A DNA stretch of 63,792 nt, the filler included, from Octopus bimaculoides (Eukaryota): NCBI RefSeq assembly GCF_001194135.2. It is 7 parts of 6 records of this genome, joined end to end, with 100 filler letters (N's around TTAATTAATTAA, not from the genome) between each part and the next. Parts side by side here need not be neighbours in the genome. Positions count along the whole stretch, not along the records: positions 1 to 10,785 come from NC_068988.1; positions 10,886 to 19,017 come from NC_068982.1; positions 19,118 to 32,807 come from NC_069001.1; positions 32,908 to 46,045 come from NC_068986.1; positions 46,146 to 54,109 come from NC_068990.1; 2 more parts are not named here. One strand, given 5' to 3'. Every line of letters starts with the position of its first letter. The first letter of the stretch is position 1. The notes below the pieces were generated by a model. The model ran no database searches. It was not told the origin of the DNA and worked only from the letters and a program-made list of their open reading frames with translations. Shown here piece by piece: positions 1-54,078 of the stretch. Made by a program: the position numbers and the translations under genes.

Positions 1-624
1 AGATGCTCATTAAGCATCATTACGATATTTCATAGCTCGATAAAGCTATCATAACTGCGTTCCACCAATGCTACTACTGGTGATATCTTCAAATTTTGAA
101 TTTATCCACAGATGATATGAACAGTAGTGACATCTAACTTCATATATCAGTGTTTGAATATTTCATTTATATATATATGAATATTTCATTTAAATATTTG
201 TACGCACCATGTGTTCTGATTTTGGCGCAAAACAAAACCAGTTGCACAGTCAGAGACTAACGTGAACAGTCATGAATTTAAACTGGTGGTCCACACTGAC
301 GAAGCTCAAAGTTGAATAACCAAAATTGAAACCTGGTTTGTGGATATCCGTAATAGCATAATATTTTTATTTGTGTTGTTAAACGTTTTAATTCGGTCTG
401 TTTTCCTCGCATACTGTTTTTCTCTGTTATATTGGTGCGCTACGGTGGATTATTTAAGACTTGGCTCTTATTTCTAGCAGGTAGATGCTCATTAAGCATC
501 ATTACGATATTTCATAGCTCGATAAAGTTATCATAACTGCGTTCCACTAATGCTACTAATGGTGATATCAACAAATTTTGAATTTATCCACAGATGATAT
601 GAACAGTAGTGACATCTAACTTCA
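1..624. repeat. Direct repeat with 482-bp period containing one hammerhead motif
   Basis: 1-142 recurs at 483-624 with a handful of substitutions; the second copy runs into a 10-N gap. Confidence 0.85.
290..344 (+). ncRNA. Minimal type I hammerhead ribozyme motif (weak stem II)
   Basis: TCCACA-CTGACGA-(25 nt)-GAAAC-CTG-GTT-TGTGGA. Stem I is 6 bp perfect, core is intact, cleavage triplet GUU, loop III ACCTGGT is near-palindromic. Stem II has only A-T and G-T at its base. Confidence 0.6.
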
Positions 625-2295
625 NNNNNNNNNNATGCAAACTGCTGACCCAAACGCTCTGCATACCAATATGAATCCACATGGTAAAATTCCAAATCAT
701 GCTTTTGCTGAAACTAATGGTGGAGTCGTTGTCGAAGGAACTATAGAGAACTGAACGCGAAAACATGCGGTTACATTACCAGCTTCTTAACCACAGAAGA
801 ACACGCACGCACCCACACGCACACACACACATACACGGACGCATATGCACATACACAGATATATATATATTTTGTCTCATAATCAAGTATAAATATGTGA
901 AATTGATTAAAATAAAACTATTCTGGAACAAATTGCATACCAATGTTGTGATAGTTCCGCTGAATAAGTACACACCCTCACAGTTTATAGCCGTGATATC
1001 TAAATTATATCTCTGAGTATCCTATTCCTCGTAACTATTATATTTATATTTACAGGCATACATTAATATCATAGCACTTGACGTTGTAGGAATGTTGCCC
1101 ATTAAGTTTCCCTTTTGAGAATGTGTACATTATTTAGGTAAATAATAGACAAACATGTGGACAATGCATCATTACTTTGTTATGGTCCATAAAATATTTA
1201 TTTCAATAGTCAATTCTTGTTTAATTCACCCAGAAGTATCTAGTGTATAGTGTCAGATATACTGATTGTTCATATGGGAAAAGTCCGGCGAAGTTTTGCA
1301 CACTTTGCGAGAAATTTTTATACACGTCTCTCCAACAGTTTATTAACGCTGCTTTCGTATATCGCCTGCATTCACTGATAATTGCTTAAAATGCTGTTTT
1401 GATTTGTGATATGTCTGGCATTTAAATGATTTGACATTGAATTTCTGTTGTTTCAGTGAAATATTGTTGTATCAAAATTCAACTCCGTGTACTATGGTAT
1501 CCTTTGCAATGTATTGAATGACCAAGTAATATCATGACAAGGGAATTCTCCATTCCATATTTAACCCAATACAACTTCGTTGTTTACCCATGAACTATAA
1601 TTAGCCTTAAAACCGTTTTATTCGTAGCTTTACTATATCTTAAAAGAACTGCATTGTGTTATGAACATGGTTTCAACCAATACCGTTACAAAAAAAAAAC
1701 ACCTATTTAAGTATACGCTTGTGGATAAATATATATACGCACCGGTAGATTTGCTGCATGAGCAATTCGTATGTATGTATATATGCATGTATGTATGTAT
1801 GTATGTATGTATGTATGTATGTATGTATGTGCAAACCTTTGAACGTAGTGTAAGCCAGAAGGTTTGTAAACCCACCGGAGGCCTCAAAAGACATTTTAAG
1901 ATCCACAAAGAGCAGAACGTATCTGCAGCTCTTGGTGGCCCATATCGGAGGTACAATTTATGTGTATCTTTTCAGAACGTTGTCTTGTTTAAAAAGCCAA
2001 ATCAGATGCCATGATGGTGACAAGTTGTACGTACATGAGGTGGTCAAACACTGTATAAGGAGTAGACAACAACTACGTATGTATGTATGTATGTATGTAT
2101 GTATGTGCACACACCTGCATAATTTGTACTTGTTTGAGTGTGTGCACATACTTGTGAAAGTTAATTACTCAAGTTAAAGGAGTGACAAAATAGTTCTAGG
2201 GCCATGCTTAGAATTTCGATGCGTGATTTTTTTCCTTATGCAAGCGGTGGGAGAATGTTTCATTCTTAACATTTGAAATGTTCACTGTTGAAGTT

Positions 2296-2870
2296 AGGAG
2301 GGTCGGTTATGAATGTCCATAGGCTGACCAAGATGGAACGAGGCCGAGTGAGATTAATTTTTTTTTCAATACAGTCCCCCTTCGGTCCACATACATTTCT
2401 CATCTGTATTGTAGGGCCTTGGTCAAGGCGTTTCAATCCTGTTGGTCAAGAATGTCAACAGCAGCATCATCATTGCTATACTGGTTGCCAGCCAAGTGGT
2501 TCGTCAATTTAGGGAACAGATGATAGTCAGACGAGGCCAAATTATGAGAGTAGGGTTGGTGATCAACAAGTTTGAGGATACTCACATACAGCAATTTAAA
2601 TTAAGGATTTGTGAACTGAAGCTTCGTCCTGATGAAAAAAGTCCCCTTTTCTCAGTTTGGGCGTTTGGACTTAAAGTTTCGTATCTGTCTCAGATAGCTG
2701 GAATTGTACTTTCCATTGATGATGTGGCCATATGCACAATGCCTTTTAGCATCCCAAAATACATCATCTTCCCTGCAGATGAAACAACCGTCGTCTTATT
2801 TGTATGTTTCTATTACATTGATCGTCTGTGATTCACAGTGATGAAGCCAAAAGTTATCCGGAGTTAGGAA
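2296..2870 (-). mobile_element. Decayed mariner transposase C-terminal half plus 3' end
   Basis: Minus-strand fragments read SAGKMM..FWDAK(G)IV, LFHQDEASVHKS, LVDHQPYSHNLASSDYHLFPKL..HLAGNQYSNDD and VDRRGDCIEK. These match mariner DD34D motifs (YSPDLAPSD), with frameshifts and stops. Confidence 0.8.
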
Positions 2871-3795
2871 ATTTTCGAAGAATTCAGCTGGATATACCTC
2901 AAACAACGCCAAATGTTCCCGCTATGTAATCAGCCTGGGGCGCTTTTTGTCAGGTCCCAGAAAAAGAAACCTTCGTCTAACAAGTTTTCATTATGCAGAA
3001 TATACTTAACTCTCTCACGGGATATGCTAATAGCTTTTCATATTTAGTTTATAGTCAGTTGCCTGTCACGCAAAACCACGTCGTGAAGACTATCATTGTT
3101 TTCCTCCATGGTGTCATATGCTGGAAGTACAGATAAGTGGGCCTCTACAAGAGTGTCCCTTCCCCATTTAAATTCAGCTGCCTACGTTCGCACTGTTGAT
3201 AAAGCTGGAACCACAGCTCGAACGGTAGCAAGTACGTCAACATTACCGTTGCAGGTACGCAGGTAACAGGACCCCAATATTTTTCCCTTTTCAAGAGATG
3301 TCTGTACTACTTCCTTTTGAAATATTCTTTGAACGGTCAAATTTCAGTTTAGTTGTACAGAGTCAACGAAGGCACGTTTCGGCCAATACCCCTATAATAT
3401 TTAGTTTTTTCAGAAATTCAAAGCTACCAGTTGCTGCCCAAAACCTGAGTTTACTAGTTTAAGCTTTACTTCGCCAGTCGATCTGGGGGTTGCTTATAAC
3501 ACTCTCTGTGTGTCCATACCATGTTGAGTGCCTGATGTATTTAATTTCAAACAAAGGCAAAACTCCGAGAAACCAATGGCACCGCTGTTGAATCGCAAAT
3601 AAATTATTTATCCAGGAGACCCAACATAGCAGGTAAGGCTATGTAAGTGCTACGTACGAAAGGACCCTAGTTAGACGCTCGCTTCGATAATAATACGAGT
3701 GAAGGGTCTGTGTGAGAATGTATATGTAAAATAAAATGAGACAACGAAACCAAAGCTCTGTTGAATTTATAGGACATTTATATTGAGAAAGATAA

Positions 3796-3853
3796 TTCTT
3801 ACAGCTGTTTCGGGTATTTTCTGGGATATCAAGGATATCTCGTCTTCAGAGAC
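3796..3853 (-). ncRNA. Hammerhead motif, core intact, stem II base mismatched
   Basis: Minus strand: GTCT-CTGAAGA-CGAGATATCCTTGATATCCCAGAAAATACCC-GAAAC-AGCT-GTA-AGAA; palindromic ACAGCTGT loop III. Confidence 0.55.
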
Positions 3854-4011
3854 GATATGAGAGGGTTAACAAGAGAGAAATAGTAGAGATCAATATAAGG
3901 TGATATTTTGGAAATAGTTAGATGTAGGATTTACTGCCTATATCGATCCTTTTCCAAAATAACTCCTCATATTGAACGCTACTATTTCCCTCTAGTTAAC
4001 TCTCTCATAAC

Positions 4012-4059
4012 GTCTCTGATGAAGGGATATCCCTCACATCCCTGACACAGCTGTAAGAC
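4012..4059 (+). ncRNA. Hammerhead motif with GAAA>GACA mutation (probably inactive)
   Basis: GTCT-CTGATGA-AGGGAT..ATCCCT-GACAC-AGCT-GTA-AGAC; stems I and II are perfect. Confidence 0.65.
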
Positions 4060-4149
4060 ACCATTTCTCTTTATAAATATGCTATAAATTCCATACAGCC
4101 AACGCTTTGTTGTCTCGCTCCATGTGATACACACACACATTAATACATA

Positions 4150-4190
<41 letters not shown>

Positions 4191-4791
4191 GTCTTGTACC
4201 CGGATATGCACCTATATATACATGTGGATATCGGTATGTACAAATATGTATGTATATATGCATATGCTCACAATATCATTTGTATTNNNNNNNNNNNNNN
4301 NNNNNNNNNNNNNNNNNNNNNNNNNNNNNNNNNNNNNNNNNNNNNNNNNNNNNNNNNNNNNNNNNNNNNNNNNNNNNNNNNNNNNNNNNNNNNNNNNNNN
4401 NNNNNNNNNNNNNNNNNNNNNNNNNNNNNNNNNNNNNNNNNNNNNNNNNNNNNNNNNNNNNNNNNNNNNNNNNNNNNNNNNNNNNNNNNNNNNNNNNNNN
4501 NNNNNNNNNNNNNNNNNNNNNNNNNNNNNNNNNNNNNNNNNNNNNNNNNNNNNNNNNNNNNNNNNNNNNNNNNNNNNNNNNNNNNNNNNNNNNNNNNNNN
4601 NNNNNNNNNNNNNNNNNNNNNNNNNNNNNNNNNNNNNNNNNNNNNNNNNNNNNNNNNNNNNNNNNNNNNNNNNNNNNNNNNNNNNNNNNNNNNNNNNNNN
4701 NNNNNNNNNNNNNNNNNNNNNNNNNNNNNNNNNNNNNNNNNNNNNNNNNNNNNNNNNNNNNNNNNNNNNNNNNNNNNNNNNNNNNNNNNNN

Positions 4792-4834
<43 letters not shown>

Positions 4835-4942
4835 ACAGATGTTGTTTAAGTTACACAATATAGCCGATGATAACTTATTAATACGTTGGAGGTTATTTCT
4901 AGGCAAAATCTATTAACACTTCTTGCGTTTCCAAGCTATTCC

Positions 4943-4999
<57 letters not shown>

Positions 5000-6499
5000 A
5001 CAAAATTGGTGACGCTGCGTTCGGTCATGTAAAAACAAATAGTAAATGAGTATATGTATATATACGTACAGGTATGTGCATACCAACATCCACCTGTATG
5101 TATAGGTGCATATCTGGGTACATGACATTGCAAACAAAACGTAGACAAGAAAATAATGATAATCAGAGTACAGAAAACGCACAAGCCACATAGAGAACAT
5201 TTTCCCTCATCGGTTACCCCCGTTTTAACACCGGCGTTTCGAAGAGCTGTTTAGGACGCATCGTTAAAACGGCTCTTCCCATGGACCGCAAATTAAATTT
5301 GTATACACAAATTAAACCTTGCCNNNNNNNNNNNNNNNNNNNNNNNNNNNNNNNNNNNNNNNNNNNNNNNNNNNNNNNNNNNNNNNNNNNNNNNNNNNNN
5401 NNNNNNNNNNNNNNNNNNNNNNNNNNNNNNNNNNNNNNNNNNNNNNNNNNNNNNNNNNNNNNNNNNNNNNNNNNNNNNNNNNNNNNNNNNNNNNNNNNNN
5501 NNNNNNNNNNNNNNNNNNNNNNNNNNNNNNNNNNNNNNNNNNNNNNNNNNNNNNNNNNNNNNNNNNNNNNNNNNNNNNNNNNNNNNNNNNNNNNNNNNNN
5601 NNNNNNNNNNNNNNNNNNNNNNNNNNNNNNNNNNNNNNNNNNNNNNNNNNNNNNNNNNNNNNNNNNNNNNNNNNNNNNNNNNNNNNNNNNNNNNNNNNNN
5701 NNNNNNNNNNNNNNNNNNNNNNNNNNNNNNNNNNNNNNNNNNNNNNNNNNNNNNNNNNNNNNNNNNNNNNNNNNNNNNNNNNNNNNNNNNNNNNNNNNNN
5801 NNNNNNNNNNNNNNNNNNNNNNNNNNNNNNNNNNNNNNNNNNNNNNNNNNNNNNNNNNNNNNNNNNNNNNNNNNNNNNNNNNNNNNNNNNNNNNNNNNNN
5901 NNNNNNNNNNNNNNNNNNNNNNNNNNNNNNNNNNNNNNNNNNNNNNNNNNNNNNNNNNNNNNNNNNNNNNNNNNNNNNNNNNNNNNATATATATATATAT
6001 ATATACATGTGCACGTGTACATGTGCGTGTGTGCGCGTGTGTGTTTGTGTGAGTGTATTCAGCCTCGGTACATTTCGTCGTTGCAAAGTACATTGTAATC
6101 ATATGGCTAAACATTTGGTAAATACTAGTCAGACATTGCGACAACACATCATTTTTCAGTTATTGTCCATAAAATATGTATTTCAATCACACAATATTTG
6201 TTTAATTCCATCAGAATTGTCTCGGGGACAATAGGTCAATGGATCGATTTCATCCAATTAGACACATGAGAATTAGCAAAGTGTGTATATGAATAAATAT
6301 ACCTATACATATATGTGTGTCTGTGTGTGTGTGTGTATATATTTACATTCATATATATATGTGTGTGTGTGTGTGAGTGTGTGTAAATAGATGTGTGTAT
6401 ATATTTCCCTTGTTAACAATTAACACGGAAAGAATATATATATGCATGTATGTGTGAATATATATGTGATTTAAACGGATAGGTGTGCTGGGTAAGTGC

Positions 6500-8330
6500 T
6501 GTGTAACTACTACGCCTCCATATCTCCAACCCTCCTTAAGATGGCCTAACTCTAGCTAAAAATCTAACCACCGTAACTTCCTTAGAAATAATTCTTTCAG
6601 CTAAGCAGACTCTCTTTGGCTCCGTGTCAGCCTCAATACTAAACGAAATGACTTTTTTGATAGAACAATGGGCTCATCCGACTCCGCTCAGGTCATGGAT
6701 CTAGTCGGACAGCAACTCTTTATTTTGCTCCACTCACTTCCTCAACATCAAAAGTGGTTTACATAATGACGATGCGTTGGTAAATGCAATAGGCCTAACA
6801 AGACCTGCTTTGGAGAGAAGTAGAAAACTGTTACAGAAATGTCTCGCCAGCGCTAACCTATCTATCTCTTCTGAAAAACTCCCCAAAACAGCAAACTTCC
6901 TATATGTCTCCTTAGATTTATACTCCATATCATAAGCCCAATCAGCGCCTTAAATACATAAATACACAATCTACCCACTATAATCCACATTCGAGGGCAT
7001 AATCAAGGGCATATCCATTAGGTTATCCGAACTATTCGCCACCGAGGAAATTTTCAATAACTGGCTAGAGATGTGAAATTGCTCTGCGTCAAATGTTTAA
7101 AAGAGTGCACATGCGCAGAATATCTGTTTAAAATAAGTTGCGGACACAATATAGTAGCTATATTAGGTTCGCCATCTAATTGCTACGAAAATACAATATA
7201 GGTTATCCTGGGCTATAATTGATTCTGGCATACCATATCAGTGGATTATACCAAAAAGAATCCCTTAAAATTCTAACGCATTTACTCAACTAATACAGCG
7301 AGGCCTTCACAACATGCAAACACAAATTCGTCCACACTTTTGAACTCTTCCCTAAATCTAAGTGCAAGCTTATCCCCACTCCCACACACATAGCGCCTAA
7401 CTATATACCTCTATGATCCATTGTTTATCGTCTCTATTGTTATTAATTCCTTCATTCCTAACTATTTATTCTTTACTTTATTTTGTAAAACTTAATCTCA
7501 CAAATCCCCTATTTTTTTGTTCCTAAATAATTTAATTTCACAGTTAACTGGTTTTCCAATACACATTCACCCTTCCCATCATCCATATCCCACTAGCTAG
7601 GATTTTATTTACGGCCACTAGCCTTGGCCATAAAATTAACTCCTACACTTACTTCCTACTCCACCCCTATAACTCGAAGAACAACACTAGCGTCTACTGT
7701 CTGATTCCCTTTTATCTACTTTACGTATTTATTCTACTTTACTTTATCTTGTATTTCTTAAATTATCTTCCTTTAAATTTATTCCTCTTTCTCTTTATAT
7801 TCTTCATTACATTTTTTTAATATTTTTATATTCTGCGGCAATTCCATGTCACCTGCTTCTCTCTCCGTAAATCTGACCACCCTCTCTACTTATTATTCTT
7901 CTTTCTCTTTTCCCCCCGATAGCCTCTAATGTTCTTTCACGATACATATCTCTCTTTCTACTTCTTTCTCTTTAGCCAACTTCTACTATCGACATGGAAG
8001 TATTCTTCATGGACATCTACAATATGAGGAATAATATCTTACGTAGATTCACAATAGATTGCACCTAAATGCTCATGGATTAGCACCTGCACAATCGGAA
8101 ACTTAAACTACGATCTTTTATATACTTTTTCCTTTTCCGTTTTTCTTTTTCTTTTCTTCTTTTCCTTTTTGTCTTTTTTATCCGTGTTCGCCTTTTCTAC
8201 ATCTCTCCATCGTTTTCGTAAACTATACTTTCTGACTTTCTCACCATCTGTCTCCGATGATAGGATATCCAACACGTTTCTGAGATATCCCAGAACCAGT
8301 TGTAAGACATAAAAAATTACATAATATTTG
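6500..8330 (+). mobile_element. Decayed Penelope-like element (Neptune-type RT) ending in a hammerhead remnant
   Basis: Frameshifted fragments YYASISPTLL, FDRTMGSSDSAQVMDLVG, GLHNDDAL, NFLYVSLDL, HKPNQRLKYINTQSTH and GISIRLSEL match Penelope RT motifs (MGSYDGAEV, YRDD, SNHP). Confidence 0.75.
8249..8309 (+). ncRNA. Degenerate hammerhead (same family as the 3.8-4.1 kb motifs)
   Basis: TGTCT-CCGATGA-TAGGATATC..GATATCCCA-GAACC-AGTT-GTA-AGACA; stems retained, two core substitutions. Confidence 0.55.
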
Positions 8331-8621
8331 TTAATAATAACATATATGACTAAGAGATGTCTTGCTTATTGTTTGTTTTCCTTTTTANNNNNNNNNNNNN
8401 NNNNNNNNNNNNNNNNNNNNNNNNNNNNNNNNNNNNNNNNNNNNNNNNNNNNNNNNNNNNNNNNNNNNNNNNNNNNNNNNNNNNNNNNNNNNNNNNNNNN
8501 NNNNNNNNNNNNNNNNNNNNNNNNNNNNNNNNNNNNNNNNNNNNNNNNNNNNNNNNNNNNNNNNNNNNNNNNNNNNNNNNNNNNNNNNNNNNNNNNNNNN
8601 NNNNNNNNNNNNNNNNNNNNN

Positions 8622-8652
<31 letters not shown>

Positions 8653-9639
8653 ATTACATGTGCATATCTATATATATGAATATGTAATTACATAGATAAA
8701 ATTATGCATATGCAGACAAATACACGTATAAATACATCCACTCACATAATGCGTTTACACACCCGTACTGACACACACACGCACATGGAGGAATATTACC
8801 CATGTAGTTATGTTCACGATATTTACGTTCGCATTTTGTGTATGATAATTATATGTAGTAGAATTAAAATACGTCACCACTGTCTCATACATTCATGTAT
8901 TGTATTACACTTAAATATCCTCACATTGTATTGTAAATTGGATAAATAGTAGCAAACACTGGACATATCTATAAAGTCACACATTATTGAGTGCGACGAA
9001 CTCTACATTTGATTACTGTTAATTCGGTCCAGAATTTCAGTAGTACTTTATTTTATTGATTATTGAAGGCTAAAAAGGTAGAACTGAGTGCAAATCAGAT
9101 GTAAAGGAGCGGAAAGAAAGGCCGTCGCATTTAAATTCGATCCATTTCTCAGTGCTATGATCTTCATGGTCATAATTGATAGACATCATAGGCCCAATTT
9201 CACAATGACAATTGTATTACATACATGCCTTGAACTCTTCTTTTGTCTAATTTAGATGAATAAAAACCAAACAAGAGATTGGGAGAAAATGAAGTGAGAA
9301 TAAAAATGTGTAATGTTATGACTGTAAAGAACCTGACAGCACACCAGCTATAACAACAATTCACTTAACCAAATCCAGGGCTACGATTCCTAACATATAT
9401 ATACGTCCACACTTCTTGATATATCATATATGTTTGTTATTATATTCTGCAGTCGTATACTCCAATGACACATTGCTTCTGAATTATTTGCAACTAGTGC
9501 AGCATATTTTCAGAAAAATTTAAGTGATAAAAATCCGGCATGATTTGAAACCAAATCATATTTAGTCTAAACACACGTGTAGATCATTCCATTCGACATA
9601 TTTATGATACAGCTAAATGTGGAATTTTTTGTTATGTTG

Positions 9640-9665
9640 ATATCATCATCATCATCATCATCATC

Positions 9666-9706
<41 letters not shown>

Positions 9707-9708
9707 CA

Positions 9709-9739
<31 letters not shown>

Positions 9740-9888
9740 TATTATCATCATCATCATCATCATCATAATTATTATTATCATCATCATCATCATCATAATA
9801 TCATCATCATCATCATCATCATCATAATATCATCATCATCATCATCATCATCATCATTATCATCATCATCATCATCATCTTCATTATC

Positions 9889-9960
<72 letters not shown>

Positions 9961-9962
9961 CA
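9640..9962. repeat. Compound (ATC)n/(ATT)n microsatellite
   Basis: Directly visible. Confidence 0.95.
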
Positions 9963-10745
9963 TTGTCCGTCTTCACGTGGATTGTGTGGAAAGATGACAT
10001 ATTTTATATCCGAAACTGAGATAGCAGGGAGATCTGATTTCTGCACTATGTGCTGTTAATCTTCTAATACGTAGCTGATAACAGGGATGAATATGGCGTA
10101 TCTCAGGTTGTAAAGAATACGTTTCAGCTTGGTTCTCGGCTTTGGCACGTATCTGTCCATAACTCGTCTTCAAACCGATTTTATATATGTGATGTGTTTT
10201 TCATAGGAAACATGGATCTTACTGCAATAAAAAGGTGTTTCTACTAAAGTGTTGATAGGTAGTATTAAAACAATCGTTCAAAATATGCATCCAGATACAC
10301 CACGTTCCTAATTTTTCTAACATCCGAATATTGATGAATCGGTATATACTCTTACATTGAAGACATCGTGATATTTTATAATGAAACCTCGAACAATTCT
10401 GAGTTATGGTGTTTCTGTTCTGAAAGTGATATGTACAATTCCTCCGTTATTCTGTGTTCCCCAACTGTTCAGAAAATAACTCGATTACCTCAGCTTCCTA
10501 ATTAATATGATAGCATTGTAGGTACCAACGAAATAGAAACGTTTGAGACATGAGAATGAAGTAAAAAAAAAATTATAAATTCTTAGGGCTATCTTGTGGT
10601 GCGAAGATGCTTTCAGCTGGGACATTTATGCTCTGTTTCCGATTTGATGATATGTTCAATTTTGCCTTTCTTCCACCAGTTTCAGTGATATGACGAAAAA
10701 TCATTGCTCTTACACTTTCAGCTGATTAATATCCAAGTATTGTCT

Positions 10746-10785
<40 letters not shown>

Positions 10786-10829
10786 NNNNNNNNNNNNNNN
10801 NNNNNNNNNNNNNNNNNNNNNNNNNNNNN

Positions 10830-10841
10830 TTAATTAATTAA
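10830..10841. other. Artificial scaffold linker TTAATTAATTAA in a 100-bp gap (also 19062, 32852, 46090, 54154, 60432)
   Basis: Identical 12-mer with stops in all six frames, flanked by N runs, at six positions. Confidence 0.95.
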
Positions 10842-10886
10842 NNNNNNNNNNNNNNNNNNNNNNNNNNNNNNNNNNNNNNNNNNNNT

Positions 10887-10988
10887 TCTTCTTCTTCTTC
10901 TTCTTCTTCTTCTTCTTCTTCTTCTTCTTCTTCTTCTTCTTCTTCTTCTTCTTCTTCTTCTTCTTCTTCGTATTTGTTAGGTAGATTG

Positions 10989-11024
<36 letters not shown>

Positions 11025-11100
11025 GTTGTTGTTGTTGTTGTTGTTTTTGTTGTTGTTGCTGTTGTTGTTATTTTAGATGTTGTTGTTATTGTAGATGTGG
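10887..11100. repeat. (TTC)n/(ATT)n/(GTT)n microsatellites
   Basis: Directly visible; source of the poly-E/I/T ORFs. Confidence 0.95.
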
Positions 11101-12639
11101 TTGGTCTATGTGGTGCCCTAAAGGACACAAATTTCATAATATTGATTTGCTGTCGTCTGTTTTCCTATCTATATAGAATTATGGTGGCAACGACGCCCAG
11201 TATCCAACGAGGAGGTAGCGGGAAGCTCTTCTCATACCACTATAAGCCGTACATGAGATGATTTACACGAGAACAACAAGAATAACAAAGCAATAACTGT
11301 AATTGGTTAAGAGAACGAGTTTAACAACACAGCCAACAACGACACAAGCATGAAAAAGAAAAAGAAGCGACAACAAGACCAGCAACAGTAATAGATATGC
11401 AATAGCTCTTTATATTATTATTACTCGACCGACAACGACACAAACAACAACAATAACAATTACCTTGGAAGTTGTTACTTATTGTAATAGAAATGCCTTA
11501 CTCTTTAAATAATCATTACAGCCGCAATTGAATAATTGAATAATTGCAATCTCTAACACTTTCATTTACTGGAATTCTTCAAATCTAAAATTCGTTTTCT
11601 AAATCTTAAATCGACCTATAATTATCCACTTTAGTAATAGCTTAAACTGCTGTTTATATAACTGTTTAATATACTATACTATCAATTGAGGAGAGAAAAT
11701 CCAGTACGCCTCTTCTGATTAGCAGAGAACAAACTTTGAAAAGTTCCCCCACATATTCGTACATAGAAAGCATAGAATGAATGTGTTTGTATTCTAACAA
11801 TTTTTTAACAGGTTTTGAACTATTAGAATAATAATTACATATAGACGCCATCGAATTACTTTATATTACTGTGTCCTCATCATAGACATTTGCAGTTGTT
11901 TTGGGGAGTTGCAATATTTAGTTAATGACATGCCGTTTGTAGTGACAGTACAGTTTTGCGGTTAGCTTTGTTGGTTGGCACGGGAATTTATGCCTTGTCA
12001 CCTATTGTGAAGAAACAGGGAGGAGACATTACTTAACAGTTTTAGTTTAAAATGCTGACACACTGACCAATGAAGTTCTTGGCTAAATCTGCCATGTTTT
12101 TATTTATACACTACGTAGTTCACTATGTCAATTTCTTCATTGTAGCATCAGCACTTTGTATCTATTCCATTTTTTTTATCTCATTGGCTTGATAGCTCTG
12201 GGTTAATAAGTTTTGATTTTGAGAAGCTACGATGAAGTCTTGACAATCCGCCTTTAGCACTGAACTTCGTAGCTATTTATGGGTGCATTTTGTTATTATT
12301 ATTATTATTATTATTATTGAGTGAGAGAGTAGGAAATGTCATCAAAGTGACACTGGGGTACAAATGTACAGAGCCCAATATACTTATCATGACTGCCCGT
12401 CTGATAATAAATGTACACCAGACACATGCATCACAACCATATCTTCACGACATGGTGAGCTCATATCAAGATAAATGGACCCTATCGTTATTATTACAAG
12501 CATTAACAGAACAAAAGACTACACCACACACCAAGAGAAAAAAATATCTAACACAATACAGTATCAAGAAGAGTTTGCTGTGCTGTTCTATTTATTTCCG
12601 GGTTGGGTAGCTATGTAGAGATTTTACTTTGGTTTAGCC

Positions 12640-13195
12640 TTTTATTTACTGTTTTCAGTGTTCTCTCTGTTGTGTTCTCTCCTTTCGTTTGTGATGGCTT
12701 TTGCGTTTTCGGAGATATAACGTCTGATGTGTTGGTTTTTGCCTGATTGCAGTCAATTGTTTTCAGTTATGAGGTGTTTTTTAAAAAATTTTCCGCGTGC
12801 ATTTTATCTATTAGTTTGTCTATTTCGGTTCGGGGCACGTTTCTCTCTCACAGCATACGTCACTGGACATCCGCAAGAGTATTCCCTGAGACTTTTCCCC
12901 TTCTATCAGTATTCCTTCTCTATATTTGATATGTTTCTCTTGTTATCCCTGTGTTTCCCGGGTATAGCTTTGCAGTGGAGAATGCATATAGCACTTCGAT
13001 GTAGTTATCATCTGTCCAACTTTCTCTTTTGGTTTTGATTTTCGTTTGGGTAATGGCATTAAAAGAGGGATCTGCCTGTTAGAGTTAACTTTTTGGCAGA
13101 ACACCTTCTCTGGGTGTGTGCTATTATTGTTCACGTATCTTGAGTGCCTCAAAATCATAAATAAAAACTCGCCTTTGTTTTCGAACTTTTATTAC
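12640..13195 (-). mobile_element. Penelope-like RT thumb remnant
   Basis: Minus-strand YVNNNSTHPEKVF resembles the Penelope Y-x4-S-x-HP motif; downstream sequence is heavily decayed. Confidence 0.45.
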
Positions 13196-13199
13196 CGAA

Positions 13200-13229
13200 C
13201 ATTTCTTCTTGTTCTTGTTCTTGTTCTCG

Positions 13230-13261
<32 letters not shown>

Positions 13262-13309
13262 GGTGTTGTTGTTGGTGTTGTTGTTGTTGTTGTTGTTGAT
13301 GCTGTTGTT

Positions 13310-13351
<42 letters not shown>

Positions 13352-13490
13352 CTTCTTCTTCTTCTTCTTCTTCTTCTTCTTCTTCTTCTTCTTCTTCTTC
13401 TTCTTCTTCTTCTTCTTCTTCTTCTTCTTCTTCTTCTTCTTCTTCTTCTTCTTCTTCTTCTTCTTCTTCTTCTTCTTCTTCTTCTTCAGC
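13200..13490. repeat. (GTT)n + (CTT)n microsatellite
   Basis: Directly visible. Confidence 0.95.
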
Positions 13491-13724: not shown

Positions 13725-14600
13725 AGGTGGTATATCTTGATTATCAGTTGCCATTGTCTTGAAGTTCATTGAAAAGGTGTAGCTCTGGTGGCAACGATAA
13801 GATAGTTTATTCTTCCTGTTGGTGGATACGGCAAGTTGTTGGAGTATGTACAATCTATCGAGGAGGAAGAGTTGGCACATCCGAGTTCCAGGTGAAAGTG
13901 GGAAACGTCAATGATACTCCATTCGATGTTGGGAAGTCGTTCCAATGGCACTGGAGCCTCCAGATAAAACGGGGTAGGGAGGAGTCTATTTTCTATACGT
14001 GCATGTGAAGGAGTTACTGTGTTGCGTATGCTTTCCTTTGCACTCGAACTCATTAGCTGTCATTTCCCTGTAGTGTCTTGTAATGTCATCGGATAAACTA
14101 TAATCTATCGCCGCACCCATGCTCACCATCTAGCCTCAACTTTTTAACCTTCGATCACCAATTTCTTTTCAACCTAAGGCCACCAGACTTAATTCCAGTC
14201 ACACCTGTTACTATTGAAAGGCTATTGTCGCTAATGTGTTGGGTCTCTTTGAATTGGCCATCGAGTAACAAACCCGGAACAACACCCCATCAAGTCATGT
14301 GTGGTATGAAAGGCAATGAACTGATGTCGCTCATTATACCATACTGCAGATCCAGACATGACGATGTCTGCTACCTTCCGACTTCCAGTCCGAGAACATG
14401 CTCCTAAGAATAAAGAAAATAACTGATGTCACTGTTAGACCAATATCACCGCATGATTGAATTGACCAGTAGACGCGTAACATCTAGAAACCATCTTGGA
14501 TTTGTTTCACGTCCCTTTACTCTTGTCTAGATGCCTGATAAGATAGGGTCGTTCTGCGAGCTGACGAAATATTAAGTTCGTTGAAACTGAGTTAAACTGT
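13725..14600. mobile_element. Retroelement remnant (probably Penelope-like) with terminal hammerhead core
   Basis: Plus-strand SSHVWY..YTIL resembles the Penelope endonuclease C-terminus and is followed by CTGACGA..GAAAC-TGA-GTT at 14561-14593. A minus-strand ORF fragment lies at 13766-14053. Confidence 0.35.
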
Positions 14601-17189
14601 TCTCAGATGTGTGTGTCTGCGCGCGCGCGTGAAAGAGAGAGAGAGAGAGAGAGAGGGGGGGAGAAAGAGAAAGAGAGAGAGAGAGAGAGAGGGGGGAGGG
14701 AGAAAGAGAAAGAGAGAGAGAGTTTTAAAAAAAGAAACAGAAAAGAGGAGAAAATGACTATTTAATATAGTTATTCTCTCACAACTGTTGCATTACCTCG
14801 AAATTTCCAAGCCTGAGATGTGGACATTCTGAGTAATACATATTGGTTTAATGTTATTGTTGTTTCTAATCAAATACTTGGAACATTCATCTTCGAAACC
14901 GGCGGAGATCCATTTTCTTTTGTATAATGGGACGCATCGAATGGGGTTAATATAATCTCCCTCTAAATAATTATTAGTTTATGCGTTCAGGCCGATCAAT
15001 TTCAATCTCAATATTAACTGTTGATTATTACTTCCGTGTGGTGCAAATATTGAGGTAGAAACATTGACATTCAATACTTGCTATTGCTGTATTCATTACT
15101 GACAATGATCAGGACTGTGATGACAATATTCATATCGTGTAAATTGGGATATTGCTTTATGTACTAGTGTCGCCAAGTTCAATTCAGTTCAAGCATCAAA
15201 ACGTTAATAAAGCTCACTCTTCATAAACCGAAAATATAAAATACAAATTCCAGTATTGATTAATTGTAATTTTCAATAAGAGTTGAGAAAATTTCTTTAA
15301 CAGCAAAGTCAAAGAAAAATATAAATCTTCCTCGTAGCAAAGCCTGTAAGAATTTTAACAAGAATGTGTATATTCCATTTAACTTATGAAAACTGTCGTT
15401 TGTATAAATCAGAAAGTTTCGGAGATAGAACGGAATTTGTTTAATATTCAATCTTCAATCATGATAATTTCCTCAATCATCATTTGATTTGATGAAAGTT
15501 GCAGGAGATAAACTATAACTTTTATCGCAGAACATCAGAAATATTTATATGAAATGGGATAATCTACTTAGTAATACTTTCAGTTTTATTACTGAACTTT
15601 GCAAATAGACTGCGACACCGCCCGAAAATTTACTTTGAAAATATCTTACCATATTGTTTACTTATGTGCACATACACAAACACACATATGAACACACAGA
15701 CACGTACACAGACACGTACACAGACACACGGACACACTCGCGCGCACACGCATACACATACACACAAACGCTTTCTCTCTCTCTCTCTCTCTCTCTCCTT
15801 CGCATGCACTCGCACAAATATATCTACGTTCTTCGATATATATAACGTAAACGCAAAGGTGTTCCAAGAAACATGCTACATAGCTAGGCACATACCGACA
15901 GAGAAACACACAAACGCATATACACATACATACAAACACACTCCTGTCGCTACATTCACACAGACACTTTCACCTATATGTACATACATTCAAGAGACTG
16001 TACTTTCATTTGTTCGGATACGAGCTTCAATTTCTTGCAATTCATATTTTGTATTACAAATGCCAAATTGACAAATCTAAGTACACATACAAAATACACA
16101 AGCAAATAAACTCTCACACATATGCACACATTCACACACAATCACTCATACGCAGATGCACACATATATATAATGGTAAAAGTTCAACGACAAGGAAAAA
16201 ACAACGAAAAATAAGTTCCTCTTATTAAGTTAACCATCAATGAAATATAAACATCTCCCACGTAGGTCTTTCATTGATTACTATGAAGACGTGATAAAAG
16301 AGAAAACAGAAAAAAAGTAAATGTTGAAACACTTCACTTTCTATAAAAATCTAGAGCCAGCACTGAAGGTTTCGACGTTTTTTATACGAATACTTCTATG
16401 TAAACAATGCGATCGAAGATAGCAAAATAGATAATGGGTGTATATGCATATTGTAGAAGTTATTGCTCCGTCTTCAGCACTACATTCAACCCATTAACTA
16501 TCAAAGAAATGCAATTTATGCGTATCTAAATGTTCGCACTTTCGTTTTAGATCTAAGAATTCCACCGCTCTATTTAATTCTAGATGCAAAATTTTCTGCA
16601 AATGCAAGCAAATGGACGAATTTCTTTTGGTGAACTGGAGAATAGCACAGTCTCCGCATCGAGCAACTGTCTTGCAGATGTTGGACTAATCTCTGTTGAA
16701 TTATTCTACAATAACTAGTTTAAGTATGACTTCTACAGTCAAATGGGATGTAACTCTAGTTTTCTTTCTTTTCTTTCTTTTTTTTTCGCTTTGATTCACC
16801 ATTTATTTTCTCATTGCACTTTTTCCGTCAATCTTGTGATTTCACAAATACCACCGTCTTAATTTTCAAATACAACGAACCGTGTACTCAGAGACCGAGA
16901 GTGCTTGGAGACCCACAGCACATTATAAAAACCTATTTCAATGACTAGAAACTATCGGTAGCTCTTATCTTAATAGAGTGTACTTTATAAATTATATTTA
17001 TCTCTCACTGGATGGAGTCTATTTTTGTGGATTTTACCTTAACGGAACAATAAGCCACACACGCGCACACACACATATACAAACATACTTCCTGCATATA
17101 TATATATATATATATACATACATACATGTATATATATATATATATATACATACATATATATACGTACATACATACGTACATATATATAT

Positions 17190-18555: not shown

Positions 18556-18760
18556 TTTTTACGAAGAGGGGCAATACCCCGAAACTAGTCTGTAGATGCC
18601 AGACCAGCAAGGTGAAGCGCTGACCTCCCCTATTCGAAGGTTATAATGGACACAGGTTCGTGTGTCACATAGCTAGCTAGAGGCGATGGCTTCTTGGAGC
18701 TAATCAACGGCTGCATTCGTCCTATTTTTTGGACTGCCATGTTGGCTTGGCGATACCTAT
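18556..18760 (+). mobile_element. Hammerhead-bearing repeat (inverse copy of 32940-33130)
   Basis: Shares GCCATGTTGGCTTGGCGAT, TAGCTAGCTAGAGGCGATGGCTTCTTGGAGCTAAT and other segments with the reverse complement of 32940-33130. Motif: TTTAC-GAAGA-GGGG CAATA CCCC-GAAAC-TA-GTC-TGTAGA. Confidence 0.7.
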
Positions 18761-19489
18761 TATATATATATATATAGGAAAATGAAAAAAAGACAGAATG
18801 CTGAACTGGAAGCATAATTTAATAAAGATTTTTTCTAACCGGTTTTCATTGCGAAGAAGCAAATTATCAAGAAGGAGAATGAAAATGTTTTTTTACAAAG
18901 AAGTACAAAATGAAGAAAATAATATATAAAACAATAATATATAAAAAAATAAATATACCCATACATTATATTGTCTTTGAGCTTTTGTAGTTCAATAGTA
19001 GTTCATGTATAAATTGGNNNNNNNNNNNNNNNNNNNNNNNNNNNNNNNNNNNNNNNNNNNNTTAATTAATTAANNNNNNNNNNNNNNNNNNNNNNNNNNN
19101 NNNNNNNNNNNNNNNNNTTCTATTTTATTTTTGTTTTAATTACCATAGTTGAAATGAATACTAACTGGACTACCATTGAAAAACTACTTTCTAAATGAAG
19201 TAGAAATGAAAAAAAAAGAAAAAGAAAGAAGTCGGAGTTTTTATGTTTAATGTATGTGCGGTTATGAGAAGCTAAGAATAAATAATTTTTTAAATGTCTG
19301 GGAGAAAAAATTCAGATAACTGACGCGGCTAGAAACGTTGGTTATAGAAAAGGTTTTCGGAATGAATGAATGAACTAGTTGGGTGTGGGAAGGAAGGAAT
19401 AAACAAAAAAAAAAAAAAGGAATATAAATGCGAAAAAAACACACACACACACAAAAACACAAAACAAAAATTACAGAAGACAAAAGAAT

Positions 19490-23290: not shown

Positions 23291-23816
23291 TATGAGGGGG
23301 TGCTGAAAGTTCTTGGCTTCGAGTAAAAGGAAATACAAGGGGATCAGTTAATTATGATTTTATTCAACATATTCCCCCTTTCAGATTCACACACTTATTG
23401 CAGCAGTCCTTCAGTTTTTCTAAACCCTGTAAAAGAACTTGGGATGTTGGGCCTCCAAACAGGCCTTTTGTGATACCCTGAAAGCCAGGAACTTACCAAT
23501 ACCCCCTCATATGTATGTGTGCATATGCCTGTGTGCGTATGTCTGTGTATATATATATATATACACACACACATACATACATACATACATACACACACGA
23601 GGGTGTGCCGTAAAGCTCCTGGCTTTGGGTAAAAGAAAATACAGGAGGATCAGTTAATTATGATTTTATCAAACATATTCCCCTCTCAGATTCTCACGCT
23701 TATTACAGTAGTCCTTCAGTTTTTCTAAGCCCTGTAAAAGAACTTGGAAGGTTGGGCCTCCAACCAGGCCTTTTGTGATACCCTTAAAGCCAGGAACATT
23801 TCAGCAACCCCTTGCA
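23291..23816. mobile_element. Two tandem mariner-type MITEs (23291-23511, 23596-23816)
   Basis: First copy runs TATGAGGGGGTGCTGAAAGTTCTTGGCTT ... AAAGCCAGGAACTTACCAATACCCCCTCATA, with TIRs and TA ends; the second copy aligns along its length. Confidence 0.85.
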
Positions 23817-32908: not shown

Positions 32909-33313
32909 GTACTGGATATTAATAGTTATCACCAAGCCAACATGGCAGTCCAAAAAATAGGACGAATGCTTCCGTTCATTAGCTCCAAGAAGCCATCGCC
33001 TCTAGCTAGCTATGTGACTCACGAATCTGTGTCCATTATAACCTTCGAACAGAGGAGGTCAGCCGCTTCCCTTGCTGGTCTGTCATCTACAGACTATAGT
33101 TTCAGGGTATTTGCCCTTTATCAATGTAAAGCAGCCGAACCGAGTAGGTGTCGCTACTGGTCGTCTATTCGAGGGGGTATTTACCTAAATTCAGTGGAAT
33201 ACATCCACTGGTTTTCAAAAATAGAAATATTAATATTTCTAAATCTCTCTAAAGGAGACTACGGCAGCAGTACTGGATATTAATAGTTATCGCCAAGCCA
33301 ACATGGCAGTCCA
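32909..33313 (-). mobile_element. Direct-repeat-bounded 361-bp unit with one hammerhead
   Basis: 44-bp direct repeat GTACTGGATATTAATAGTTATC(A/G)CCAAGCCAACATGGCAGTCCA at 32909 and 33270. Confidence 0.75.
33086..33130 (-). ncRNA. Hammerhead motif with two core transitions
   Basis: Minus strand: TTTACA-TTGATAA-AGGG CAAATA CCCT-GAAAC-TATA-GTC-TGTAGA; stems I and II intact, palindromic ACTATAGT. Confidence 0.6.
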
Positions 33314-37187: not shown

Positions 37188-37226
<39 letters not shown>

Positions 37227-38994: not shown

Positions 38995-39041
<47 letters not shown>

Positions 39042-39046
39042 GTTTG

Positions 39047-39079
<33 letters not shown>

Positions 39080-39339: not shown

Positions 39340-39376
<37 letters not shown>

Positions 39377-52029: not shown

Positions 52030-52240
52030 TATGTGTGTGTGTGTTTGTGTGTCTGTGTTCGTCCCCCCAACATCGCTTGACAACCGATGCTGGTGTGTTT
52101 ACGCCCCCCGTAACTTAGCGGTTCGGCAAAAGAGACCGATAGAATAAGTACTAGGCTTCCAAAGAATAAGTCCTGTGGTCGATTTGCTCGACTAAAGGCG
52201 GTGCTCTAGCATGGCCGCAGTCAAATGACTGAAACAATTA
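52030..52240 (+). mobile_element. SINE family A 3' part
   Basis: CATCGCTTGACAACCGATGCTGGTGTGTTTAC...GCATGGCCGCAGTCAAATGACTGAAAC; reverse complement of 35850-36030. Confidence 0.8.
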
Positions 52241-53558
52241 AAAGAGTAAAAGAGAGTATATATATTTCTATACGAAATATATACTCACAAGGCAGCAATT
52301 TTAGAGAGAGGAATCTGTCGATACTCTCTATCCTCAATACATGACTGGTATTTTATTTTATCGGACAGGAGGTATGAAAGGTAAAACTGAAATTTGGCAG
52401 GATTTTAAATGAGAACACATACTACAAGATATTTTTTCGACGCACTAATGATTCTGCCAATCCTCCGCCGATATTATGAACTTCAGTTTTTGACGAGTAT
52501 CTTATTTATCGATCCTGGGGAGAGGAAAGGAAAAGTTGTCCTCGGCGAGTTTGGATTCGGAAGGGGAAGAACCAAAACCAGAATCATAAAACACACTTTT
52601 TGAGATGAAAGACTATCGATGGTCCAGCAGTGCTCTCGAACCCACTCACATAAGGATGCGCAGGTACACAGCTATAGTTGGATCATATCAGTGCAATAAT
52701 GTGTATAGTAGGTGAAACACTCAACAATNNNNNNNNNNNNNNNNNNNNNNNNNNNNNNNNNNNNNNNNNNNNNNNNNNNNNNNNNNNNNNNNNNNNNNNN
52801 NNNNNNNNNNNNNNNNNNNNNNNNNNNNNNNNNNNNNNNNNNNNNNNNNNNNNNNNNNNNNNNNNNNNNNNNNNNNNNNNNNNNNNNNNNNNNNNNNNNN
52901 NNNNNNNNNNNNNNNNNNNNNNNNNNNNNNNNNNNNNNNNNNNNNNNNNNNNNNNNNNNNNNNNNNNNNNNNNNNNNNNNNNNNNNNNNNNNNNNNNNNN
53001 NNNNNNNNNNNNNNNNNNNNNNNNNNNNNNNNNNNNNNNNNNNNNNNNNNNNNNNNNNNNNNNNNNNNNNNNNNNNNNNNNNNNNNNNNNNNNNNNNNNN
53101 NNNNNNNNNNNNNNNNNNNNNNNNNNNNNNNNNNNNNNNNNNNNNNNNNNNNNNNNNNNNNNNNNNNNNNNNNNNNNNNNNNNNNNNNNNNNNNNNNNNN
53201 NNNNNNNNNNNNNNNNNNNNNNNNNNNNNNNNNNNNNNNNNNNNNNNNNNNNNNNNNNNNNNNNNNNNNNNNNNNNNNNNNNNNNNNNNNNNNNNNNNNN
53301 NNNNNNNNNNNNNNNNNNNNNNNNNNNNNNNNNNNNNNNNNNNNNNNNNNNNNNNNNNNNNNNNNNNNNNNNNNNNNNNNNNNNNNNNNNNNNNNNNNNN
53401 NNNNNNNNNNNNNNNNNNNNNNNNNNNNNNNNNNNNNNNNNNNNNNNNNNNNNNNNNNNNNNNNNNNNNNNNNNNNNNNNNNNNNNNNNNNNNNNNNNNN
53501 NNNNNNNNNNNNNNNNNNNNNNNNNNNNNNNNNNNNNNNNNNNNNNNNNNNNNNNNNT

Positions 53559-54078
53559 TTGATTGTTATTTCAAGCAGGTAGACATACTTAGTATGTCCT
53601 TTGATTAATTTTTATCCCTCGGCTATTTAAATGCTATTTTTTGGCCCGCAGTAACTTATATCGTTGATTCTGTTACTAGCATTATTAAACTAGTGGCATT
53701 GGATAATAATAGAATTAACGATACCTTTGTAAATTAATTTTTAATAAATTATTTTTCTCGTAATTCTGTAACGAGATTATTTTACATTGGGAAGCTGCTG
53801 TGATTTCGGTGCAAAACGAATCAGTAGCGGCACAGATTTCTGAAGGATAGGTTGGGAATCGCTTTCCTGGTAATGTGTGCTGAAGAAGCAAAGGCATATT
53901 ATGTCAATGCAGAAACTAGTCCACGTAAATCCATATACTTAAATGAATGTAAGTCTTAACCAAATTTGCCTTCGTTTGATTCCTGAAGTAATCACCAGTG
54001 TATTTTTTGGCGATTTAATAACGAGTTTTGACTGTTATTTCAAGCAGGTAGACATACTTAGTATGTCCTTTGATTAAT
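53559..54078 (+). mobile_element. Direct-repeat-bounded 469-bp unit with one hammerhead
   Basis: About 50-bp repeat TTGA(T/C)TGTTATTTCAAGCAGGTAGACATACTTAGTATGTCCTTTGATTAAT at 53559 and 54028. Confidence 0.75.
53875..53926 (+). ncRNA. Minimal type I hammerhead (near intact)
   Basis: GTGTG-CTGAAGA-AGCA-aaGGCATattATGTCaa-TGCA-GAAAC-TA-GTC-CACGT. Palindromic ACTAGT, triplet GUC, single A-A mismatch at the base of stem II. Confidence 0.75.

What the first reader, a model, noticed from the sequence alone, without database searches (positions are those of the whole stretch)
290..53926. Window-wide system: about ten minimal hammerhead ribozymes from several families in three recurrent architectures
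Seen in sequence: CTGANGA...GAAAC-N2-5-GTH motifs with paired stem I at 290, 3796(-), 4012, 8249, 18556, 33086(-), 48865(-), 51304 and 53875, plus a core without stem I at 14561. Loop III differs between families (ACAGCTGT, ACCTGGT, ACTAGT, ACTATAGT, ACCGGT, ACTATTGGT) but is always palindromic or nearly so. The motifs occur (a) at Penelope 3' ends, (b) once per 361-482 bp direct-repeat-bounded unit, and (c) in fold-back elements. Established: Penelope-like elements and metazoan non-LTR retrozymes carry minimal type I hammerheads whose palindromic loop III allows dimer-dependent cleavage. Inference: this genome hosts several non-coding, hammerhead-processed elements mobilised by Penelope RTs. 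I do not know whether they have been described in cephalopods.
Basis: partly seen in the sequence, partly recalled or inferred. Interest (0 to 1): 0.85.

Follow-up and report, generated by a model that had tools for sequence, protein, structure and literature searches.

The report
Octopus Penelope hammerheads and retrozyme repeats
This stretch of repeat-rich, likely octopus DNA holds six intact-looking and four decayed hammerhead motifs, predicted to be self-cutting RNAs, in the ends of broken Penelope-like jumping genes and in short non-coding repeats that likely hitch-hike on them; this is a known kind of element, though one very abundant repeat family carries a rare paired change in the catalytic core.

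Summary
The enrichment is real, but half the listed sites are not intact. A type I hammerhead descriptor found 6 sites against a mean of 0.077 in 1000 shuffles. Five are among the 10 listed; one (46027-) is new. Four listed sites are decayed copies, and 14561 is not supported.

The three 'architectures' look like outcomes of one process, Penelope-like (PLE) insertion: 3' ends of decayed PLEs (mostly Hydra-clade), head-to-tail non-coding units of 361-482 bp, and inverted 5'-truncated pairs.

Only the 361-bp family was tested on public data. It is very abundant in three organisms and has head-to-tail joints. Stem I changes in pairs and helix III varies while staying palindromic. No variant at 4% or more was listed in its U3-A8 core in four runs.

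This kind of system is published: PLE hammerheads, mussel retrozymes, a hammerhead in the octopus element Hydra-1_Obim (supplement), and U3-A8 cores in Schistosoma PLEs. I found no paper on cephalopod retrozymes. Cleavage, circles and mobilisation are untested. Verdict: new members of a known kind.

The parts
1..624 (+). 482-bp non-coding unit plus 142 bp of the next copy; cut by the window start and by a 10-N gap
   Evidence: 1-142 equals 483-624 at 137 of 142; fold z -4.61; distantly collinear with the 469-bp unit
289..345 (+). Type I hammerhead, C3 at 296, stem I 7 bp, weak stem II, helix III ACCTGGT, predicted cut after 338
3719..4135 (.). Fold-back: two diverging copies of a hammerhead-bearing 3' segment, TA/CA-rich flanks
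   Evidence: arm-to-arm score 205, shuffle max 62.5
3797..3852 (-). Decayed hammerhead (core letters intact, internal duplication, stem I 3 bp), helix III ACAGCTGT
   Evidence: fails the descriptor
4012..4059 (+). Decayed hammerhead: stems intact, GACA in place of GAAA
   Evidence: one mismatch allowed
6638..7374 (+). Decayed Hydra-like PLE coding remnant (RT, weak endonuclease end)
   Evidence: tblastn E 7e-12; profile E 9e-9
8250..8310 (+). Decayed hammerhead about 0.9 kb downstream of that remnant; same hammerhead type as 3849 and 4016
   Evidence: score 86.5, max 71.5 of 60 shuffles
14555..14600 (+). Core-like letters without stem I; not supported as a hammerhead
   Evidence: no PLE profile hit upstream
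18567..18762 (+). 5'-truncated copy of the 361-bp family: stem II, GAAAC-TA-GTC and the 3' arm, no 5' core; ends in the 31-bp terminal segment followed by (TA)n
   Evidence: (91% identity)
32909..33311 (-). 361-bp unit plus 42 bp of the next; starts at a TA-rich repeat and ends at an N gap
   Evidence: 41 of 42; head-to-tail joints in public contigs; fold z -3.46
33086..33130 (-). Type I hammerhead with U3-A8 core (UUGAUAA), stem I 6 bp, stem II 4 bp, helix III ACTATAGT, predicted cut after 33092
   Evidence: no core variant listed in four runs
45991..46031 (-).
46146..46433 (-). RT fragment of a second PLE-type lineage (not Hydra-like), upstream of 46027 across a 100-base gap spacer
   Evidence: Pfam RVT_1 E 4.7e-5, below cut-off; 253 relatives; one relative has RT plus weak GIY-YIG
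46656..47072 (-). Second fragment of the Hydra-like thumb/linker region
   Evidence: 85% identical to 49700-50262
48865..48928 (-). Type I hammerhead about 210 nt downstream of the Hydra-like endonuclease end; helix III ACTATTGGT, predicted cut after 48871
49126..50958 (.). Decayed Hydra-like PLE with a 5' inversion: RT on + (50256-50958), thumb, linker and endonuclease on - (50265-49126); microsatellites at both ends
   Evidence: alignment text of Hydra-1_Obim
51086..51453 (.). Fold-back: a longer copy with the full hammerhead on +, a shorter inverted copy truncated inside stem II (half-site at 51183-)
   Evidence: arms 112 of 118
51303..51372 (+). Best-formed hammerhead: C3 at 51310, stem I 7 bp, long stem II, helix III ACCGGT, predicted cut after 51365
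53558..54078 (+). 469-bp non-coding unit plus 52 bp repeat, preceded by an 829-N gap and ending in (TG)n
   Evidence: 51 of 52; fold z -2.68
53874..53927 (+). Type I hammerhead, C3 at 53880, stem I 6 bp, A-A mismatch at the base of stem II, helix III ACTAGT, predicted cut after 53921

Best explanation
The window holds type I hammerhead motifs at the 3' ends of decayed Penelope-like retrotransposons and once per unit in short non-coding repeats that are likely non-LTR retrozymes, predicted to be cut from tandem transcripts by paired hammerheads and likely copied into microsatellites by the reverse transcriptase and endonuclease of Penelope-like elements. Shown: the motifs, their enrichment, the PLE remnants and the inverted pairs; for the 361-bp family also its abundance, head-to-tail joints, paired changes and U3-A8 core. 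Inferred: (1) tandem or read-through transcription; (2) cleavage only when two palindromic helix III segments pair, giving unit-length RNA; (3) circularisation by a host ligase; (4) target-primed copying by a PLE protein at TA/TG repeats, which yields more-than-unit, 5'-truncated or inverted copies and so all three architectures; (5) decay of most copies after insertion.
For: Enrichment: 6 against 0.077.

PLE context: two listed motifs lie downstream of Hydra-like coding remnants, and the new one downstream of another RT fragment. The PLE at 49126-50958 itself has a 5' inversion. The fold-back hammerheads resemble the PLE-end hammerhead at 8255.

Units: GC 0.33-0.43, no hit to the PLE protein queries, and more folded than shuffles.

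361-bp family: 4367, 3044 and 2276 contigs laid in three runs of three organisms. Head-to-tail joints with 57-63 letters on the shorter side, longer than the 42-bp repeat, occur in all three. Stem I A-U to G-C is seen on both arms in X12 and X13 (33127 and 33089). Helix III variants ACTAGT, ACTATAGT and ACCGGT are all palindromic. No variant at 4% or more was listed at 33118-33124 or 33100-33103 in 4 of 4 runs, while neighbouring columns vary. One 31-bp segment starts one copy and ends the other, each beside a TA repeat, like the PLE tail of PMC8557442.

Self-duplex energies of helix III were -4.5 to -11.1 kcal/mol at 7 of 8 sites.
Against: No cleavage, circle or transposition was tested. In the 2026 preprint only 1 of 9 Xenopus dimers cleaved in vitro.

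No window locus shows two complete units; arrays end at gaps. The 361, 469 and 482 units showed no similarity to PLE 3' regions in the window above shuffles, so their driver is not identified.

Only one family was laid on public data. Depth over its hammerhead is about 1-3% of the peak elsewhere in the unit, so most of the family's depth is not seen at the core columns and a divergent C3-G8 subfamily could be missed. The 18556 copy has G before A9. Paired stem I changes are column totals, not phased copies. Opposite-strand joints are single contigs at 80% likeness, where the tool warns of repeat artefacts.

The minimum-energy fold of the 361-nt monomer does not form stem I. The 46027 helix III does not self-pair (+2.2 kcal/mol). 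One U3-A8 hit alone is reached in 57 of 1000 shuffles.
Confidence: 0.8

Rival explanations
1. All motifs are terminal fragments (pLTRs) of autonomous PLEs, and the 361-482 bp units are locally amplified PLE ends with no RNA life cycle of their own.
For: Most PLE insertions are 5'-truncated, and inverted pairs are typical (PMC8557442, PMC4209133). The fold-back at 3719-4135 resembles a PLE 3' end. This reading probably holds for both fold-backs.
Against: The 361-bp unit has head-to-tail joints and is covered end to end, with no coding similarity. It is dispersed (two copies 14 kb apart on opposite strands) and carries a terminal segment at either end.
Confidence: 0.12
2. The units are SINE-like or satellite repeats moved by another LINE or by unequal crossing-over, and their hammerheads are inherited and no longer needed.
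For: 4 of the 9 listed sites other than 14561 are broken. Octopus genomes are rich in unclassified SINEs (PMC13282606 passages). Depth over the hammerhead part is low.
Against: Core columns show no listed variant while stems change in pairs and helix III stays palindromic. Uncompensated decoy cores give 0 hits. No poly(A) tail was seen in the window copies.
Confidence: 0.06
3. The motifs are chance matches in AT-rich repetitive DNA.
For: Rfam showed no hammerhead. Site 14561 fails. Site 46027 has a short stem I.
Against: 6 observed against max 2 in 1000 shuffles; 5 against a mean of 0.021 when palindromy is required.
Confidence: 0.02

Closest known systems
Metazoan non-LTR retrozymes (Cervera and de la Pena 2020, PMC7229834; Li, Clavereau and Pollet 2026, bioRxiv 10.64898/2026.07.22.740005)
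   Same: Non-coding units of a few hundred bp, GC under 50%, one type I hammerhead per unit, head-to-tail joints, weak palindromic helix III, co-occurrence with PLEs. Mussel units are 350-390 bp.
   Different: No cephalopod appears in the texts I read. The 361-bp family has a U3-A8 core, and the 469 and 482 bp units are longer than the 150-450 bp of the 2020 paper. Circular RNA was not tested here.
Hydra-clade Penelope-like elements, including Hydra-1_Obim (Craig et al. 2021, PMC8557442 and its supplement)
   Same: By eye, the RT and thumb fragments closely follow the Hydra-1_Obim alignment rows. Both have a 3' hammerhead with a near-palindromic helix III, microsatellite targets, and inverted 5'-truncated copies.
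   Different: The window copies are decayed, and their hammerhead letters differ from the tabulated one. Five helix III strings from the window had 0 matches in that supplement.
PLE hammerheads and min-HHRs (Cervera and de la Pena 2014, PMC4209133)
   Same: Bulged base after A9 (48922, 46027), palindromic 15.2-16.2 region, opposite-strand pairs 100-700 bp apart, and about 1,300 U3-A8 motifs in Schistosoma mansoni.
   Different: Most window motifs keep a 4-7 nt palindromic insert and a 6-7 bp stem I, so they are the small-helix-III variant, not strict min-HHRs. U3-A8 is here in a non-coding tandem unit.

Membership tests
Type I hammerhead ribozyme | Conserved core, GAAA, UH site and stems I and II | tested here: met
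   6 sites pass, 5 of the 10 listed; four others are decayed and 14561 fails
Type I hammerhead ribozyme | Paired changes in stems with a conserved core | tested here: met
   361-bp family only, from column totals; other families not tested
Type I hammerhead ribozyme | Match to an Rfam hammerhead model | tested here: not met
   (150 of 232 rows seen)
Type I hammerhead ribozyme | Self-cleavage at the UH site | not testable with these tools
   needs in vitro transcription
min-HHR of PLEs (Cervera 2014) | Helix III reduced to the conserved nucleotides, no loop III | tested here: not met
   A15.1-U16.1 segments are 6-9 nt at five of six passing sites; 46027 (5 nt) is nearest
Non-LTR retrozyme | Short, low-GC, non-coding unit with one type I hammerhead | tested here: met
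   361, 469 and 482 bp; GC 0.43, 0.33, 0.34; no PLE protein hit in them
Non-LTR retrozyme | Head-to-tail tandem arrangement | tested here: met
   361-bp family in 3 of 3 non-RNA runs laid; the other two units show only 1.1-1.3 copies before a gap or microsatellite
Non-LTR retrozyme | Two consecutive units each with a complete hammerhead (the 'active' criterion of Li 2026) | tested here: inconclusive
   window arrays end at N gaps; no listed contig spans two hammerheads
Non-LTR retrozyme | Expression as linear and circular monomers | not testable with these tools
   only contigs were available, which cannot show ends or circles
Non-LTR retrozyme | Homology to the pLTR of an autonomous PLE | tested here: inconclusive
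   weak for fold-back 3719-4135 against 8255; none for the three units against PLE ends in the window; no genome held
Hydra-clade PLE | RT and thumb of Hydra type with a C-terminal endonuclease | tested here: met
   comparison by eye with Hydra-1_Obim rows; no tree was built
Hydra-clade PLE | CxCX5C linker, and CxxC and CxH motifs at the endonuclease end | tested here: inconclusive
   present in the query proteins; only partly kept in the decayed window copies
Hydra-clade PLE | Hammerhead in the 3' terminal region and insertion in microsatellites | tested here: met
   48922- lies about 210 nt after the endonuclease end, with TG/CA repeats at both ends; the published preference is (TA)n

The most novel reading that the evidence does not exclude
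The 361-bp repeat is an undescribed, very high-copy retrozyme shared by several octopus-like organisms that works with a fixed U3-A8 catalytic core. Its copies show the full PLE insertion signature: terminal tail at either end, microsatellite targets, tandem and inverted forms. It would be a direct genomic readout of retrozyme mobilisation by PLEs in an invertebrate. A second, older lineage (469 and 482 bp units) may in addition retain a PLE-type spliceosomal intron downstream of the hammerhead.
Probability: 0.4. Interest if true: 0.5.

Novelty: new member of a known kind. Interest (0 to 1): 0.33.

Why it matters
If confirmed, octopus genomes carry several retrozyme families, one of them very abundant. 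These would probably sit among the unclassified repeats and produce small circular RNAs in a lineage studied for RNA-level regulation.

The 2026 preprint says it did not test whether invertebrate retrozymes are close to PLEs. A family with tandem, truncated and inverted insertions at microsatellites gives a way to test that. A high-copy natural U3-A8 core would also show that this variant supports a mobile element's life cycle.

None of this changes the known model; it extends it to a new lineage.

Tried and rejected
Genome-wide scan: not possible, no assembly is held.

Rfam: no hammerhead rows. The many miRNA hits are microsatellite artefacts.

The repeat finder was swamped by N runs and microsatellites. 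A masked self-BLAST was used instead.

Metagenome scan with an 18-base motif: 4 loci, matching the window only over the motif and short chance stretches. Rejected as chance.

Expression: no RNA holder listed. One run guessed to be RNA (X15) had 140 contigs laid but may be DNA. It is not used as evidence either way.

Site 16477-: core with a 97-nt insert, and no acceptable cleavage site with stem I. It did not pass the descriptor with inserts up to 120 nt. Site 14561: rejected. Fold-backs 40436-40669 and 63377-63776, and the duplication 23294-23812, show no hammerhead and were left out.

A recalled likeness of the 361-family loop II to the canonical Schistosoma loop could not be verified and is not used.

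Searches for print on cephalopod retrozymes: plus term searches inside PMC7229834 (0 for octopus, cephalopod or squid) and PMC13282606 (0 for ribozyme, hammerhead or retrozyme). None described them. The PMC7229834 supplement, file 1 of the PMC4209133 supplement, the preprint's supplements, Repbase and Dfam could not be seen and may hold such families.

Earlier scan notes: none for this genome or sequence.
Full report
Setting. The window is AT-rich (GC 0.33), full of microsatellites, and holds 7,621 N. No assembly is held. The best hit of an RT fragment is a UniRef entry named for Octopus bimaculoides, at 70% identity. By eye the PLE fragments follow the published Hydra-1_Obim rows. I infer an octopus host.

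Observation. My type I descriptor found 5 sites with a strict CUGANGA core, against a mean of 0.04 in 200 local dinucleotide shuffles. Allowing the compensated U3-A8 core gave 6 against 0.077 (max 2) in 1000 shuffles. Requiring a palindromic helix III gave 5 against 0.021. Uncompensated decoy cores gave 0. The six are 296+, 33124-, 46027-, 48922-, 51310+ and 53880+. Four listed sites are decayed: 3849- has an internal duplication and a 3-bp stem I, 4016+ has GACA, 8255+ has two core changes, and 18556+ lacks the 5' core. Site 14561 has no stem I and no PLE context. Rfam showed no hammerhead in the rows shown.

Context (a), PLE ends. tblastn and a profile from 150 related proteins place Hydra-like remnants at 6638-7374+, 16483-16668+, 47072-46656-, 49431-49126-, 50265-49906- and 50256-50958+. 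The query proteins carry the CxCX5C linker described for Hydra. The element at 49126-50958 has its RT part inverted against its 3' part, and hammerhead 48922 lies about 210 nt after the endonuclease end. Hammerhead 8255 lies about 0.9 kb after the 6638-7374 remnant. Hammerhead 46027 follows an RT fragment of another lineage, but across a gap spacer, so that link is uncertain.

Context (b), units. The three units are 482, 361 and 469 bp. Each is followed by a partial repeat (137 of 142, 41 of 42, 51 of 52) and borders a gap, so arrays may be collapsed. They fold better than shuffles (z -4.61, -3.46, -2.68). The 482 and 469 units align collinearly with hammerheads in register (score 128, max 99.5 of 60 shuffles, one of 156 comparisons), which suggests one old lineage.

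The 361-bp family was the only one tested on public data. Twenty of 24 listed runs hold part of it, in 10 studies. I laid 4 runs on the unit: 4367, 3044 and 2276 contigs in three runs of organisms A, B and C, and 140 in a run of doubtful type. Summed depth reached 1.17 million in X1 against about 30-60 for single contigs. The tool warns this is not a copy number; thousands of copies is my inference. Head-to-tail joints with 57-63 letters on the shorter side occur in all three runs. Opposite-strand joints often have one side near the unit start (33308-33311) and a variable other side, but each is a single contig.

On the hammerhead itself, in 4 runs at a 4% threshold, variants were listed only between 33072 and 33138. 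None fell in the core 33118-33124 or in GAAA. Position 10.1, stem I and helix III did vary. Stem I shows A-U to G-C on both arms in X12 and X13. Loose ends show helix III as ACTAGT and ACCGGT beside the window's ACTATAGT. Against this: depth at the hammerhead is only about 1-3% of the unit's peak, so divergent subfamilies may be unseen, and the pairs are not phased. One 31-bp segment begins the 33311 copy and ends the 18762 copy, each beside a TA repeat. This matches the 30-40 bp PLE tail described in PMC8557442.

Context (c), fold-backs. At 51086-51453 a copy with the whole hammerhead adjoins an inverted copy truncated inside stem II (arms 112 of 118). At 3719-4135 two diverged copies point outward, and their hammerheads resemble the PLE-end one at 8255 (score 86.5, shuffle max 71.5). 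Inverted 5'-truncated neighbours and opposite-strand hammerhead pairs 100-700 bp apart are published PLE features.

Mechanism. Helix III is too short to be stable alone, but self-pairs at -4.5 to -11.1 kcal/mol at 7 of 8 sites computed. This fits cleavage by dimers in tandem transcripts. I infer release of unit-length RNA, circularisation by a host ligase, and PLE-primed copying into microsatellites that yields tandem, truncated and inverted copies. These steps rest on published work in other animals. In vitro activity there is uneven: low for PLE min-HHRs, and 1 of 9 Xenopus dimers. The driving PLE of the three units is not identified.

Literature seen. PMC4209133: parts 1-2 of 4 and supplement passages (U3-A8 in Schistosoma, molluscan examples). 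PMC7229834: section 14 and passages; supplement unreadable. bioRxiv 10.64898/2026.07.22.740005: parts 1-3 of 5; supplements closed. PMC8557442: section 11, passages and supplement passages, including the Hydra-1_Obim hammerhead row. PMC3088659: passages (U3-A8 is natural and was earlier shown active in vitro). PMC6962438, PMC13282606 and PMC7151607: passages only. No paper in searches or 75 described cephalopod retrozymes, but unseen supplements and repeat databases may.

Verdict. Real and enriched, about half decayed, and explained by known PLE and retrozyme biology. The new elements are the octopus non-coding families, chiefly the abundant U3-A8 family. New member of a known kind; interest 0.33.

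Noticed in passing
window:471-500 and 53949-54067: The 482 and 469 units share TTTC(T/A)AGCAG-GTAG, which looks like a 3' splice site, followed by a 6-7 bp hairpin with different letters. The 469 unit has GTAAGT about 100 nt upstream, just after the hammerhead. A retained PLE-type intron is possible, but GTAAGT occurs 19 times in the window.
   Followed up: partly
window:223-233 and 53807-53817: Both related units have a conserved GGYGCAAAAC motif about 70 nt upstream of the hammerhead; it is part of a predicted hairpin in the 469 unit.
   Followed up: partly
window:16350-16490 (-) and 16483-16960 (+): A weak Hydra-like endonuclease end on + adjoins a core-like motif with a 97-nt insert on -. 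A possible 3' half-site lies at 16948+. This may be another inverted PLE end.
   Followed up: partly
window:32955-33258, runs X12 and X13: A joint that goes back 304 bases suggests a shorter unit variant of the 361-bp family in organisms B and C.
   Followed up: no
window:40436-40669 and 63377-63776: Two further fold-back elements without hammerheads, probably MITE-like.
   Followed up: no
window:54212-54610 and 62652-62919: Tc1/mariner-type DDE transposase remnant (Pfam DDE_3, E 5.7e-12), with a second partial copy at 89% identity.
   Followed up: no
window:21185-41284, 52064-52236, 56113-56270: Several dispersed SINE-like repeat families with many copies of 100-220 bp.
   Followed up: no
window:10786-10885 and six similar places: Gaps written as 44 N, a 12-base AT palindrome, and 44 N: an assembly spacer, not biology.
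   Followed up: yes
protein P0001: A named octopus gene model begins with Hydra-like RT sequence joined to a phosphatase/PH-domain protein; probably a mis-joined annotation.
   Followed up: no
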